From contig DAVY01000020.1 in the NCBI GenBank assembly GCA_002505775.1, positions 4,860 through 68,859 of the forward strand: 64,000 bases of DNA. The letters run 5' to 3'. The first letter of the stretch is position 1, and the number at the start of each line of letters is the position of its first letter. This document shows, piece after piece, positions 8,675 through 52,275 of the stretch. A program made the translations under genes and the position numbers. The notes under the pieces were generated by a model. That model saw only the letters and a program-made list of their open reading frames with translations. It was not told the DNA's origin and ran no database searches. The DNA is from Euryarchaeota archaeon UBA130 (GTDB taxonomy: Archaea; Thermoplasmatota; Poseidoniia; Poseidoniales; Thalassarchaeaceae).

Positions 8675-8722
8675 ATTGAGCGTTAGCGGGCTTGAAATAG
8701 TGTGGGTAGGTCCGGCGGTTCG

Positions 8723-8914
8723 ATGGCGAAGGAAAAGAAGGGTAGCGGGATTCAGCAAGCCGCTGGACTAATCAGATACTTCGACGAGGAGTCTGAGGAT
8801 GCTATCCAGATATCCAAGACGATGATTTACGTGGCCTGCTTTGTTTTCTCAATCACCATATACCTAGCCAACCACAATGTATTGTCTTGGCTGGCTGATA
8901 CAATCGGTCTTTGA
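8723..8914 (+). CDS. secG: Preprotein translocase subunit Sec61beta (SecG, archaeal)
   Basis: 'MAKEKKGSGIQQAAGLIRYFDEE...' followed by one C-terminal TM helix is the typical archaeal Sec61beta layout. ATG at 8723; the upstream GTG at 8702 is an alternative. Confidence 0.75.
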   Translation: MAKEKKGSGIQQAAGLIRYFDEESEDAIQISKTMIYVACFVFSITIYLANHNVLSWLADTIGL

Positions 8915-49455: not shown

Positions 49456-49542
49456 CGGCTGAAGTAGCCATGTGACCAAATGGTGCCCTACCACGCATGG
49501 TTGAGGGTAATGGTTATCCTCTGTAGTACTCGCCTAACCCAC

Positions 49543-50661
49543 ATGAAGCATCTCATCAACAGAGTTCTGGAGCTTGATGAGGAGTCCGAATTACCCTTAG
49601 GACCTATAGATACCGAAAGTGATCCGGAGCTTCAGAGCTTACTGATGTCATTGCAACCAAAGATACGTGTCTTTGGATGTGGGGGATGTGGTTCTAATAC
49701 TGTTGCAAGACTGGAACATGAGGACCTCTTCGATGACGAGTATGTCAGAGGAATTGCAGTAAACACTGACGCGCAACACTTGTTGCGAGTGGCTGTCAAG
49801 AATAAGATTCTGATTGGAAGATCAGCGCGAGGCAGGGGCGCTGGAGGAGATCCAGAAAAGGGCGAACAGGCGGCATACGAATCCGAGAGGTCCCTGAAGG
49901 CGGAGATTGAGTCGTGCGATCTTGCCTTCATCACAGCTGGTCTAGGCGGGGGAACAGGGACCGGAAGTGCCCATGTTGTAGCAAGGCTGGCCAGAGCCGC
50001 TGGCGCGCTAACAATCGCAGTGGTTAGCTATCCCTTCCTATCTGAAGGAGCTCTGAGGAGACAAAATGCTGAGTGGGGCCTAGAGAGATTAAGGGAGGTC
50101 TGCGATACAGTTGTTGTGCTTCCAAATGAGAGGCTTTTGGAGGTTGATGGAGTAAGAGAGCTCCCTCTCGACGCGGCATTCAGAGTAGCAGATGAGCTCC
50201 TGATGCGAAGCATCAAGGGGGTTTCAGAGATGATAGCCAAAGAAGGAGTGGTTAATCTGGACTTCCAGGATTTGCGATCTGTTATGGAAAATGGAGGTGG
50301 AGTGGCAATGATCGGACTCGGTGAGGCCAGAGGTGAAGGAATGGCAGAAGCCGCCACAGAGGAGGCGTTGCAATCTCCACTTCTGGATATCGATGTGTCC
50401 GATGCCAGAGGCGCGTTAGTCAATGTCGTAGGTGGCCCCAGTCTCTCTCTCGGTGACGCTGAATCATGTGCCAAGATCATAAGGGACAAGATCAACCCAT
50501 ATGCTAGAATAATCTGGGGAGCTACTACTGATCCTAGCATGGGCGATGGCATCAGAGTTCTGCTGGTTCTGACAGGAGTGAAGAGTGAGCAGATTCATGG
50601 TGCTGCGTTGCATACCCAGATGAGGAATTTGAAGAGTAGGACAGTGGAGTTTGTCGGATAG
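49543..50661 (+). CDS. ftsZ: Cell division protein FtsZ
   Basis: 'RVFGCGGCGSNTV', 'NTDAQHL', 'ITAGLGGGTGTGSAHVVARLAR'. Confidence 0.93.
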   Translation: MKHLINRVLELDEESELPLGPIDTESDPELQSLLMSLQPKIRVFGCGGCGSNTVARLEHEDLFDDEYVRGIAVNTDAQHLLRVAVKNKILIGRSARGRGAGGDPEKGEQAAYESERSLKAEIESCDLAFITAGLGGGTGTGSAHVVARLARAAGALTIAVVSYPFLSEGALRRQNAEWGLERLREVCDTVVVLPNERLLEVDGVRELPLDAAFRVADELLMRSIKGVSEMIAKEGVVNLDFQDLRSVMENGGGVAMIGLGEARGEGMAEAATEEALQSPLLDIDVSDARGALVNVVGGPSLSLGDAESCAKIIRDKINPYARIIWGATTDPSMGDGIRVLLVLTGVKSEQIHGAALHTQMRNLKSRTVEFVG

Positions 50662-50740
50662 CAGACAATCAAACGCGACAGCCATGTCCGCTGTGCTTAA
50701 ATGAGGCTCGTCGGTCGGCAGACCGCTTTGAGGTAGAACC

Positions 50741-51004
50741 ATGAGTGTTGAGAGTTCCAATGTTGGCGCTGTCGAAGAGACCGTACAGGGTTGGCAGGAC
50801 GGTATCGAAGGAAGGATTAAGGGACTGCAAACTGGTTCTTACGCTAGAATCCTGAAGATGGCAAGAAAGCCCTCCAAGCAAGAGTTCAGGCAGACTGTGA
50901 TAGTTTGTGGAATCGGTATGCTGGTGCTCGGATTAATAGGATTCGTGATGCTGTGGGGGATGGACACCTTGTTGCCTGACTTCTTCAGATGGTTGACCAA
51001 TTAA
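50741..51004 (+). CDS. secE: Preprotein translocase subunit SecE (Sec61gamma)
   Basis: 'ILKMARKPSKQEFRQTVIVCGIGMLVLGLIGFVM', single TM; conserved position before spt5. Confidence 0.8.
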   Translation: MSVESSNVGAVEETVQGWQDGIEGRIKGLQTGSYARILKMARKPSKQEFRQTVIVCGIGMLVLGLIGFVMLWGMDTLLPDFFRWLTN

Positions 51005-51008
51005 GAGG

Positions 51009-51917
51009 GTGAAAAACATGTCAGATGCTTTTGTTGCTTACATTCGTCATGAAGAGAAGGTCCTATTGATGCAAAGAGCCGATGAGGTCTCTGATTTCCC
51101 CGGTGCTTGGGATGGAGTCTACGGAGTAGGAGATTCAAATGACCTAGATGCAGTTGCTTCGAGGATCGAGGAGGCAACAGGTATTCCCCATGAGAGCCTG
51201 ACCTTCGTCAGATCTGGTGACGCCAGGGGTCTTGAGTTCGGGAACCGGCTGAATGATGTAACTCCTCTGCTTTTCCTTTGTGATACCGAAGAGGTAACCG
51301 CCAAAGGACTTTACAAGAGCTACAATTGGGTCGACCCGGGTTACATCAACTGGGTGGAGCCCGAAGATTCCTCTGATAGCAGATCAACCAGATATATGGT
51401 CCCTCAACTCGGGAATATGTATGGTGACGTGGCTTCATTCCTCTACATATTGAAGACCAGCATGGGTCAAGAGCAGAATGTGGCCAGGGAAATCAGGGCT
51501 AGGTTATCTGGGACTGGATCGCTACAAGACATTCAAGACAAGATATTCGGGGTCCTAAGTCCTAGCTATCTGAAGGGATTCATATTCGTCGAAGCCACCG
51601 CCATTCATCACGTTGAGAAACTAATAGGCAGAGTTGGAGTATCAGCTACCCCAATGAAGAACTGTCGGAAGGTGTTGGACGGCGAGTCGCCATTAAGGGA
51701 CATCCTACCATACCTAGAACCGAAGGCCGCAACAACCGGAATCGAGGAAGGAAACATCGTGGAAATACGCGGGGGCGCCTTCAAGGGTGCTTCGGCCCGT
51801 GTGATTGGCGTAAGCGAGTCGAAAGAGGAAGTCACGGTCGAGTTATTCGAGGCGGCAGTCCCAGTAGCCCTCAACATAAGGGCCGATCAGGTAAGGGTCA
51901 CCCAAAGAATGGAGTGA
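51009..51917 (+). CDS. spt5: Transcription elongation factor Spt5/NusG with in-frame N-terminal Nudix-like domain
   Basis: The C-terminal 165 aa form NGN ('FLYILKTSMGQEQNVAREI...KGFIFVEA') plus KOW ('GNIVEIRGGAFKGASARVIGV'). Residues 1-135, 'KVLLMQRADEVSDFPGAWDGVYGVGDSNDLDAVASRIEEATGI', look like a degenerate Nudix box. No stop separates the parts. Confidence 0.8.
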   Translation: MKNMSDAFVAYIRHEEKVLLMQRADEVSDFPGAWDGVYGVGDSNDLDAVASRIEEATGIPHESLTFVRSGDARGLEFGNRLNDVTPLLFLCDTEEVTAKGLYKSYNWVDPGYINWVEPEDSSDSRSTRYMVPQLGNMYGDVASFLYILKTSMGQEQNVAREIRARLSGTGSLQDIQDKIFGVLSPSYLKGFIFVEATAIHHVEKLIGRVGVSATPMKNCRKVLDGESPLRDILPYLEPKAATTGIEEGNIVEIRGGAFKGASARVIGVSESKEEVTVELFEAAVPVALNIRADQVRVTQRME

Positions 51918-51996: not shown

Positions 51997-52275
51997 ATGT
52001 CAGCGCGCAATGAAACCCCTCACAAAATAATCCAGTCACTTGGTAAAAAGAAGTGTAACGGATCCTGGGAGGAAGCAACGGAAAACCTCACAATGGATCA
52101 GGTAAAGAAGATCGCTGATGAGCAGAAAGACCGCCTCACTGGTGCAACTCTTTACGCTAGGTGCAGGGAAGTCATGGGAACATGCGTATCAATGAGAGTA
52201 AATGTCGAGGGGATGTCTCCAAAAGACGCCTTGAATGCTATGAGCAAGGGGGAATTTGCCGAGCATTTCGCTTGA
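51997..52275 (+). CDS. rpl11: 50S ribosomal protein L11, C-terminal (rRNA-binding) domain only
   Basis: 'NLTMDQVKKIADEQKDRLTGATLYARCREVMGTCVSMRVNVEGMSPKDAL' matches the L11 C-domain. It is only 92 aa, and the GPPLGPALG-containing N-domain is absent. Confidence 0.75.
   Translation: MSARNETPHKIIQSLGKKKCNGSWEEATENLTMDQVKKIADEQKDRLTGATLYARCREVMGTCVSMRVNVEGMSPKDALNAMSKGEFAEHFA

What the first reader, a model, noticed from the sequence alone, without database searches (positions are those of the whole stretch)
51009..51425. Spt5/NusG fused in frame to an N-terminal Nudix-like domain
Archaeal Spt5 is normally about 150 aa (NGN plus KOW) and follows secE directly. Here the ORF starts 5 nt after secE and encodes about 135 extra residues before the NGN domain. 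That region, 'AFVAYIRHEEKVLLMQRADEVSDFPGAWDGVYGVGDSNDLDAVASRIEEATGIPHE...YNWVDPGYI', follows the Nudix fold pattern (hydrophobic strand, LLxQR, PGxW, G...RExxEExGU-like 'SRIEEATGI'). The Nudix box is degenerate, with RE changed to RI and altered spacing. No stop separates it from Spt5. Met137 (ATG 51417) could also yield a standalone Spt5. A Nudix module (RppH/NAD-decapping chemistry or nucleotide sensing) tethered to the RNAP clamp-binding elongation factor would couple 5'-end or nucleotide metabolism to transcription.
Basis: partly seen in the sequence, partly recalled or inferred. Interest (0 to 1): 0.65.

Follow-up and report, generated by a model that had tools for sequence, protein, structure and literature searches.

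The report
Dead Nudix domain fused to Spt5
In Marine Group II archaea the universal transcription elongation factor Spt5 carries an extra, strongly conserved N-terminal domain with a Nudix fold that has lost its catalytic residues, so it most likely binds something rather than cutting nucleotides.

Summary
One ORF (ATG 51018 to stop 51917, 299 aa) follows secE. Residues 1-139 form a complete Nudix-fold domain and residues 141-298 a normal archaeal Spt5 (NGN plus KOW). The fusion is not an assembly artefact. It is in one frame in 76 of 80 species-level Poseidoniales (Marine Group II) genomes examined, and a genome scan found 211 species with a relative. It is under strong purifying selection, is transcribed with secE, and has a conserved Shine-Dalgarno-like motif at the N-terminal ATG but none at the internal Met. 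A Marine Group III relative has a plain 179-aa Spt5, so the fusion is probably specific to Marine Group II.

The fold assignment holds (AlphaFold2/Foldseek, Pfam NUDIX, and hhalign 99.5% to canonical Nudix proteins). The enzyme reading does not. All three glutamates that are invariant in the closest canonical relatives are replaced (E49 to invariant R; E53 to A/C/T/S; E98 to L/I), and 0 of 77 fused proteins keep E..EE.G. The domain is also very acidic (net charge about -12).

My best reading is a pseudo-enzyme binding module joined directly to the NGN domain and carried on RNA polymerase. What it binds is unknown. I found no description of it in the searchable literature.

The parts
50741..51004 (+). 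secE (Sec61-gamma), the gene directly upstream
   Evidence: PF00584 at 1.7e-06. Metatranscriptome contigs from 4 runs begin at about 50723-50725 and run through secE, spt5 and rpl11.
51005..51012 (+). Shine-Dalgarno-like motif GAGGGTGA in front of ATG 51018.
   Evidence: Sequence. A match of at least 5 nt to AGGAGGTGATC lies upstream of the start in 68 of 77 homologous loci.
51018..51917 (+). Complete fused gene: Nudix-like domain plus Spt5 (299 aa plus stop)
   Evidence: The exact protein is in public collections, where it is named only 'transcription elongation factor Spt5'.
51018..51434 (+). Nudix-fold domain, residues 1-139. It is colinear end to end with 128-140 aa standalone Nudix proteins.
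   Evidence: AlphaFold2 pLDDT 79.7 and pTM 0.77. Foldseek against PDB returned Nudix hydrolases. tblastn with P0107 residues 1-126 matches 51018-51431. hhalign 99.5%.
51114..51185 (+). Degenerate Nudix box, residues G33-I56 (GVYGVGDSNDLDAVASRIEEATGI). Canonical K48/E49/E53 become S48/R49/A53. Only D39 and E52 remain acidic.
   Evidence: Alignments; conservation; 0 of 77 fused proteins have E..EE.G.
51351..51389 (+). Variable insertion inside the Nudix domain (residues 112-124). It is absent in 21 of 77 homologues and has low pLDDT.
51393..51434 (+). Last helix of the Nudix domain and the junction motif (YxxPQLxxMYGDV), which abuts NGN strand 1. Y135, G136, D137 and V138 are invariant in the 77-sequence set; a more divergent clade has MYGSV.
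51417..51419 (+). It is not a conserved start.
   Evidence: The codon is ATG in 63, TTG in 8, CTA in 3 and CTC in 3. There is no Shine-Dalgarno-like motif in 70 of 77 and only a 4-nt match in 7.
51438..51725 (+). Spt5 NGN domain and linker (residues 141-236)
   Evidence: PF03439 at 8.3e-10 over residues 142-205. PDB 3p8b alignment.
51750..51842 (+). Spt5 KOW motif (residues 245-275)
   Evidence: PF00467 at 21.8 bits, just under the 22.3 cut-off. It is covered by the TIGR00405 and PDB alignments.
51997..52275 (+). Downstream rpl11, encoding only the C-terminal domain (92 aa). This is context, not part of the fusion.
   Evidence: PF00298 only. The gene is short in all 77 loci.

Best explanation
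This is the orthologous, operon-resident Spt5 of Marine Group II archaea (Poseidoniales). It has acquired a complete Nudix-fold domain at its N-terminus.

The domain descends from a family of small canonical Nudix hydrolases but has become a pseudo-enzyme. The metal-binding and catalytic glutamates are replaced, and the replacement residues in the former active-site region have themselves become invariant (W31, D32, Y35, R49, R70, Y99, W104, D106).

The last helix of the domain runs straight into the first strand of the NGN domain, with no long flexible tether. The whole 299-aa protein is translated from the N-terminal ATG.

Inferred mechanism: the domain rides on RNA polymerase with the NGN domain. 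It acts as a non-catalytic binding module that uses the remodelled Nudix pocket to bind a small phosphorylated or nucleotide-derived ligand, or else a protein partner. In this way it would modulate Spt5's action on elongation.

Shown here: the fusion, the fold, the loss of catalytic residues, the selection, the co-transcription and the lineage distribution. Inferred: that it binds rather than hydrolyses, what it binds, and any regulatory consequence.
For: - **Fusion:** it is real and lineage-wide. A single-frame 288-305 aa ORF is present in 76 of 80 species genomes. The scan found 211 species with a relative. Two more divergent fused clades exist, P0074 (306 aa) and P0080 (385 aa).
- **Ortholog, not paralog:** the gene keeps the universal ftsZ-secE-spt5-rpl11-rpl1-rpl10 position.
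- **Distribution:** a Marine Group III locus has a 179-aa Spt5 without the domain in the same operon position.
- **Fold:** AlphaFold2 pLDDT 79.7. Foldseek returned Nudix hydrolases, and also the NrtR Nudix domain, at E of 1e-6 to 1e-8. Pfam NUDIX reached 1.3e-5 at best. hhalign gave 99.5%, E 2.3e-22, gapless over 110 columns.
- **Loss of catalysis:** canonical relatives have invariant E49, E53 and E98. The fused family has R49 in 77 of 77, A/C/T/S at 53, and L/I (one F) at 98. 0 of 77 fused proteins carry E..EE.G, against 77 of 94 nearest non-fused relatives. The divergent clades also lose E52, which becomes Q.
- **Function retained:** dN/dS is 0.025-0.12 and 20 or more positions are invariant, including the substituted pocket residues.
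- **Translation of the long form:** a Shine-Dalgarno-like motif precedes the first ATG in 68 of 77 loci and is absent (at most a 4-nt match) at codon 134.
- **Transcription:** RNA contigs span secE through spt5 without a break.
Against: - No ligand, partner or activity has been tested.
- The full-length AlphaFold2 model was poor in the NGN part (pLDDT 30-48). The geometry between the domains, and where the domain sits on RNA polymerase, are therefore unknown.
- Some acidic residues remain (D32 and D106 invariant; D39 and E52 mostly conserved in the main clade), so an unconventional catalytic site cannot be formally excluded.
- The strongly acidic surface fits a protein-interaction role as well as a ligand-sensor role.
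Confidence: 0.6

Rival explanations
1. The domain is purely a structural or protein-protein interaction module with no ligand. As an acidic folded domain N-terminal to NGN it might contact RNA polymerase, stand in for or cooperate with Spt4, engage chromatin proteins as the acidic N-terminus of eukaryotic Spt5 does, or contact the ribosome.
For: Net charge is about -12.5 in the Nudix part and about 0 in the Spt5 part. The domain-NGN junction motif MYG[DS]V is conserved across all fused clades examined. Some relatives add a further long acidic N-terminal tail (P0024 and P0051). Non-catalytic Nudix folds used as structural parts of large RNA-protein machines are known, for example mitoribosomal mL46 (my own knowledge).
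Against: The residues that replaced the catalytic ones, and their neighbours in the old active-site region, are the most conserved part of the domain. That pattern is more typical of a retained pocket than of a scaffold. No partner has been identified. The presence or absence of Spt4 in these genomes was not determined.
Confidence: 0.25
2. The domain is an active Nudix hydrolase (RppH-like, NAD-decapping, or nucleotide-sanitising) tethered to RNA polymerase, which couples RNA 5'-end or nucleotide metabolism to transcription.
For: The fold is Nudix, and RppH, NudC and Ap4A hydrolases are among the structural neighbours. D39 and E52 are retained in the main clade. A few Nudix-superfamily enzymes work with atypical boxes (my own knowledge).
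Against: All three glutamates invariant in the nearest canonical relatives are replaced (E49R, E53 to A/C/T/S, E98 to L/I), and so is H82 (to T). 0 of 77 proteins have E..EE.G. The divergent fused clades lose E52, and one of them also loses D39. The very acidic surface is unfavourable for RNA binding.
Confidence: 0.07
3. There are two proteins, not one. Either the long ORF is an annotation or assembly artefact, or Spt5 is mainly made from the internal Met and the upstream part is a separate or untranslated product.
For: One metagenomic contig of a divergent clade (L084) has TGC changed to TGA in the variable insert. This leaves a 113-aa Nudix ORF and a 186-aa Spt5 ORF. An ATG exists at codon 134 in 63 of 77 sequences.
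Against: 76 of 80 species genomes have a single open frame. The 'short' database entries are contig-end truncations or frameshifted fragments. There is no Shine-Dalgarno-like motif at codon 134, and that codon is CTA or CTC in 6 loci. The N-terminal part is under purifying selection, in frame. Met134 lies inside the last helix of the Nudix domain.
Confidence: 0.03

Closest known systems
Archaeal Spt5 (NGN plus KOW; e.g. Pyrococcus furiosus Spt4/5, PDB 3P8B/3QQC; TIGR00405)
   Same: Residues 141-298 align over the full length of the solved protein (E 4.7e-23). The gene sits at the same operon position after secE and before rpl11.
   Different: It has an additional folded domain of 139 residues in front of NGN. 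Described archaeal Spt5 proteins are about 150 aa with no such domain, and the Marine Group III relative is 179 aa.
Small canonical Nudix hydrolases of the 'WxG[IV]SG...[KR]EIxEETG[IL]...VHP...WE[HN]' type. They occur standalone at about 130-140 aa (P0104, P0105, P0107) or fused N-terminally to an IF-2B-family domain (P0099, P0100, P0106).
   Same: About 30% identity, colinear and gapless over 110 columns, hhalign 99.5%. Same fold elements, including the C-terminal helix.
   Different: The canonical family keeps invariant E49, E53 and E98 and near-invariant H82. The Spt5-fused family has R49, A/C/T/S53, L/I98 and T82. The substrate of the canonical family is itself unknown.
NrtR (Nudix-related transcriptional regulator)
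   Same: It works on the same principle: a Nudix domain with a degenerate box serves as a ligand-binding (ADP-ribose) module attached to a transcription factor. Its Nudix domain is among the structural matches (3gz8, rank 33).
   Different: NrtR is a bacterial winged-helix DNA-binding repressor, not an elongation factor. There is no specific sequence relationship and no evidence here for ADP-ribose binding.
CFIm25 / NUDT21 and other non-catalytic Nudix folds (MutY C-terminal domain, TRPM2 NUDT9-H, mitoribosomal mL46). All of this entry is from my own knowledge.
   Same: Nudix folds that lost hydrolase residues and were re-used as binding modules in RNA or DNA machinery.
   Different: CFIm25 binds RNA (UGUA). 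The domain here is strongly acidic. No homology beyond the shared superfamily fold.
Eukaryotic Spt5 N-terminal acidic region (my own knowledge)
   Same: An acidic extension placed directly N-terminal to the NGN domain of the same universal factor.
   Different: The eukaryotic region is intrinsically disordered. Here it is a folded Nudix domain, and the two origins are independent.

Membership tests
Archaeal Spt5 (NusG/Spt5 family) | NGN domain | tested here: met
   PF03439 at 38.9 bits (cut-off 22.4), residues 142-205. TIGR00405 at 104.9 bits (cut-off 69.95).
Archaeal Spt5 (NusG/Spt5 family) | C-terminal KOW domain | tested here: met
   PF00467 scores 21.8 bits, just under the 22.3 cut-off. 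The full-length TIGR00405 match and the residue-by-residue alignment to solved Spt5 KOW domains cover residues 244-298.
Archaeal Spt5 (NusG/Spt5 family) | Conserved gene position: secE - spt5 - rpl11 - rpl1 - rpl10 | tested here: met
   The same order is found in related loci.
Archaeal Spt5 (NusG/Spt5 family) | Binding to the RNA polymerase clamp and to Spt4 | not testable with these tools
   The full-length model was too poor in NGN. No Spt4 candidate was sought beyond a simple motif scan of the window, which found nothing.
Nudix superfamily (fold) | Alpha/beta/alpha Nudix fold | tested here: met
   The AlphaFold2 model (pLDDT 79.7) gave 413 PDB matches at E<=1e-3, and every hit in the listed top 50 is a Nudix-family structure (TM about 0.5-0.64, probability 1.0). 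hhalign gave 99.5% to canonical Nudix proteins.
Nudix superfamily (fold) | Pfam NUDIX (PF00293) gathering score | tested here: inconclusive
   The window's own domain scores 19.2 bits against a cut-off of 21.1 (E 0.0012). 15 of 23 family members match at E<=1, the best at 1.3e-5.
Nudix hydrolases (enzymes) | Nudix box GX5EX7REUXEEXGU with its catalytic glutamates | tested here: not met
   The box reads G33..D39..S48-R49-I50-E51-E52-A53-T54-G55-I56. 0 of 77 fused proteins contain E..EE.G. E49 becomes R in 77 of 77, and E53 becomes A/C/T/S.
Nudix hydrolases (enzymes) | Divalent-cation-dependent hydrolysis of a nucleoside diphosphate linked to X | not testable with these tools
   This needs a biochemical assay.
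Ligand-sensing pseudo-Nudix domains (NrtR-like principle) | Specific ligand bound in the former active site, controlling the attached module | not testable with these tools
   Only indirect support: the substituted pocket residues are invariant.

The most novel reading that the evidence does not exclude
All Marine Group II archaea, among the most abundant archaea of the surface ocean, have turned the one universally conserved transcription factor into a sensor. A pseudo-Nudix pocket attached directly to the NGN domain would bind a nucleotide-derived metabolite or signal (for example ADP-ribose/NAD, Np4A, PRPP or an alarmone-like molecule). It would thereby tune elongation or pausing genome-wide. 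This change arose together with a second remodelling in the same operon, the loss of the factor-binding N-terminal domain of ribosomal protein L11. Together these would point to a lineage-specific rewiring of how transcription and translation are controlled.
Probability: 0.25. Interest if true: 0.75.

Novelty: new variant of a known kind. Interest (0 to 1): 0.55.

Why it matters
Spt5/NusG is the only transcription factor conserved in all cellular life. In archaea it has been described only as a minimal NGN-KOW protein.

Here an order-wide version carries a selected, folded extra domain in a globally abundant but uncultured group. That is a natural experiment in adding a regulatory or input module to the core elongation factor. 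It is also a clean example of an enzyme fold turned into a pseudo-enzyme.

It is directly testable with recombinant protein: a ligand screen, a hydrolase assay, a structure, and binding to a heterologous archaeal RNA polymerase.

There is a practical point too. Public annotation calls these proteins simply 'Spt5' and gene callers often truncate them, so the domain is invisible in current databases.

Tried and rejected
- **Sequence search of the domain against PDB:** only marginal (ADP-ribose pyrophosphatase 3o8s, E 0.86). The fold had to come from the structure prediction.
- **Full-length AlphaFold2:** run with the 45 admissible sequences, it gave a poor NGN (pLDDT 30-48), so nothing can be said about contacts between the domains.
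- **'Standalone' Spt5 hits of 173-186 aa at 54-58% identity:** these looked like unfused versions. They are contig-end truncations of a divergent fused clade. One contig is an exception, with a TGC-to-TGA change.
- **271-aa 'complete' gene calls:** these appear to be the fused gene called from an internal Met, the MQRAD position (residue 18 in the window protein).
- **P0085 (4323 aa, 8 matches):** a Thr/Ser-rich repeat protein and a spurious match.
- **Isopentenyl-diphosphate isomerase (weak NCBIfam hit at 0.0087):** rejected as mere superfamily similarity.
- **Rfam and promoter/terminator scans of the region:** nothing found.
- **Gene neighbourhoods of the nearest canonical Nudix relatives:** no clue to a substrate.
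- **A simple zinc-ribbon motif scan for Spt4 in the window:** nothing found, and not informative.
- **Literature searches** for Spt5 or NusG together with Nudix or Poseidoniales: no description of the fusion. Two searches timed out.

Full report
**What is in the sequence**

The + strand carries ftsZ (49480-50661), secE (50741-51004), a 299-aa ORF (ATG 51018 to stop 51917), then rpl11, rpl1 and rpl10. Residues 141-298 of the ORF are an ordinary archaeal Spt5:
- TIGR00405 scores 104.9 bits against a cut-off of 69.95.
- Pfam finds NGN and KOW.
- The alignment to solved Pyrococcus and Thermococcus Spt5 is full-length, at E of 1e-22 to 1e-23.

The first 139 residues have no Pfam hit when the protein is scanned whole or as residues 1-133. 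NCBIfam gives only weak Nudix-type hits.

The real start is almost certainly ATG 51018 (MSDAF...), as in the homologues.

**Is the fusion real?**

Yes.
- A scan of one genome per GTDB species found 211 genomes with a relative of the N-terminal region. The best 80 are all Poseidoniales (Marine Group II). The window is about 99% identical to MAG UBA28.
- In 76 of those 80 loci, tblastn aligns residues 1-299 in one frame. The resulting ORFs are 288-305 aa. Of the other four, three run off a contig end and one is interrupted.
- The many short database proteins seen first are frameshifted or contig-end fragments of the same fused protein.
- The exact 299-aa protein is in public collections. There it is named only 'transcription elongation factor Spt5' or 'NusG'.
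- A profile search of 1.8 billion representative proteins found two more divergent fused clades, P0074 (306 aa, a cluster of 444 members) and P0080 (385 aa).
- The closest unfused Spt5 is a 179-aa protein in the same ftsZ-secE-spt5-rpl11 position. The neighbouring proteins on that contig fall in clusters named Marine Group III.

The fusion therefore looks like a derived character of Marine Group II. The family-level placement of the two divergent clades was not resolved.

**Is the long form expressed?**

- Where synonymous change is not saturated, dN/dS of the N-terminal part is 0.025-0.12. In the closest pair it equals that of the Spt5 part.
- A match of at least 5 nt to the anti-Shine-Dalgarno complement lies upstream of the N-terminal start in 68 of 77 loci.
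- At codon 134 there is no such match in 70 of 77 loci and only a 4-nt match in the other 7. That codon is TTG, CTA or CTC in 14 loci.
- Contigs from four marine metatranscriptomes begin at about 50723-50725, which is 16 nt upstream of the secE ATG. They run without a break through secE, the whole fused gene and rpl11. Contigs cannot exclude an internal RNA 5' end.

**What the N-terminal domain is**

- AlphaFold2, run with a 50-sequence alignment, gives a confident model (pLDDT 79.7, pTM 0.77). Only residues 113-123 are disordered.
- Foldseek against the PDB returns 413 matches at E<=1e-3. Every hit in the listed top 50 is a Nudix-family structure (NudI, RppH, NudC, Ap4A hydrolases, MutT, and also the NrtR Nudix domain), with TM about 0.5-0.64.
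- At sequence level, 15 of 23 family members hit Pfam NUDIX, the best at 1.3e-5. The window's own domain scores 19.2 bits against a cut-off of 21.1.
- The nearest non-Spt5 relatives are small canonical Nudix proteins of about 130-140 aa, plus the same domain fused to an IF-2B-family domain.
- A profile-profile comparison with these relatives gives 99.5% probability and E 2.3e-22, gapless over 110 columns.
- One of them, P0107 (128 aa), aligns from its residue 1 to 126 with window residues 1-138.

This alignment shows that the 'linker' is not a linker. The canonical C-terminal helix (TVPxLxxxxxxV) corresponds to (Y)xVPQLxxMYGDV in the fused protein. The variable stretch at residues 112-124 is an insertion inside the Nudix domain, absent in 21 of 77 homologues. 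The last Nudix helix runs directly into NGN strand 1, FLYILKT. The junction motif Y135-G136-D137-V138 is invariant in the 77-sequence set, and the divergent clades read MYGSV.

**Is it an enzyme?**

Probably not. In the canonical relatives E49, E53 and E98 are invariant, and S35, E52, T54 and H82 are nearly so. These are the E of [KR]E, the second E of EE, and the E of WE[HN]. Residue numbering happens to coincide with the window protein. The fused family differs at each of these sites:

| Position | Canonical relatives | Fused family (77 sequences) |
|---|---|---|
| 49 | E, invariant | R in 77 of 77 |
| 53 | E, invariant | A, C, T or S |
| 98 | E, invariant | L or I (one F) |
| 82 | H, mostly conserved | T |
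| 35 | S, nearly invariant | Y in 77 of 77 |

- Not one of 77 fused proteins contains E..EE.G, whereas 77 of 94 nearest non-fused hits do.
- The divergent clades additionally have Q at position 52, and one of them lacks D39.
- The substituted positions and their neighbours (W31, D32, Y35, R49, R70, Y99, W104, D106) are invariant across the family. This argues that the former active-site region is still used, most simply for binding.
- The domain is strongly acidic, with a mean net charge of -12.5 (-14 in the window). The Spt5 part is about neutral. That argues against general RNA or DNA binding.

**Interpretation**

The best-supported reading is a pseudo-enzyme Nudix domain attached directly to NGN and carried on RNA polymerase as part of the sole, orthologous Spt5. 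It would act as a binding module. My first choice of target is a small phosphorylated or nucleotide-derived ligand in the remodelled pocket, by analogy with NrtR. A protein partner is the main rival.

So is a standalone Spt5 made from the internal Met.

Several things remain unknown:
- the ligand or partner;
- the position of the domain on RNA polymerase, because the full-length model failed in NGN;
- whether Spt4 is present in these genomes.

**Novelty**

Searches of 8 million open papers and of bioRxiv for Spt5 or NusG together with Nudix or Poseidoniales found no description of this architecture. Two searches timed out. Database annotations do not name the domain. I rate it a new variant of a known kind: a new domain architecture of a universal factor, built from a known fold.

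**In passing**

The downstream rpl11 encodes only the C-terminal RNA-binding domain, at 92 aa. This holds in all 77 Poseidoniales loci and in the P0080 clade. The Marine Group III locus has a normal 156-aa L11 with both domains. No ORF resembling the L11 N-terminal domain is present in the window.

Noticed in passing
window 51997-52275 (+); also L001-L080, L082/L083: Ribosomal protein L11 is truncated. The gene encodes only the C-terminal RNA-binding domain (PF00298, 92 aa) and lacks the N-terminal factor-binding domain (PF03946). It is short (91-120 aa) in all 77 Poseidoniales loci. The Marine Group III relative (L087) has a normal 156-aa L11. No ORF resembling the L11 N-terminal domain is found elsewhere in the 64-kb window. 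The loss co-occurs with the Nudix gain on the neighbouring spt5.
   Followed up: partly
window about 50723-50725 (+): Assembled metatranscriptome contigs from four runs all end within 3 nt of each other, 16 nt upstream of the secE ATG. Contig depth is 2 to 4 times higher downstream, although the tool warns that contig depth is a poor measure of expression. This fits a transcription start for a secE-spt5-rpl11 operon that is separate from ftsZ.
   Followed up: partly
L084:3641-4561: One metagenomic contig of the divergent P0074-type clade has TGC (Cys) changed to TGA in the variable insert of the Nudix domain. This splits the gene into a 113-aa Nudix ORF and a 186-aa Spt5 ORF. Other contigs that encode the same Spt5 part have the frame open. 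It could be a sequencing error, or a natural nonsense or split variant.
   Followed up: partly
P0024, P0051; P0080 / L082:3796-5158; P0348: Some relatives carry further N-terminal additions. P0024 and P0051 have a very acidic tail of about 55 aa in front of the Nudix domain. P0080 has an acidic stretch plus a C2H2-like zinc-finger motif. An unrelated archaeal Spt5 (P0348, 251 aa) has an acidic extension of about 100 aa directly before NGN, reminiscent of eukaryotic Spt5.
   Followed up: no
P0099, P0100, P0106 (L090:5001-6329): The closest catalytically intact relatives of the domain are often fused N-terminally to an IF-2B-family domain (the eIF2B-like / ribose-1,5-bisphosphate or methylthioribose-1-phosphate isomerase family). 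This hints, from my own knowledge of that family, that the ancestral enzyme acted on a phosphoribosyl compound. P0095 is a protein made of three tandem Nudix domains.
   Followed up: no
window 8702-8914 (+): A small ORF (MAKEKKGSGIQQAAGLIRYFDEE... followed by a hydrophobic tail) resembles, by eye and from my own knowledge, a Sec61-beta/SecG-type tail-anchored protein. I saw it while checking a weak tblastn hit.
   Followed up: no
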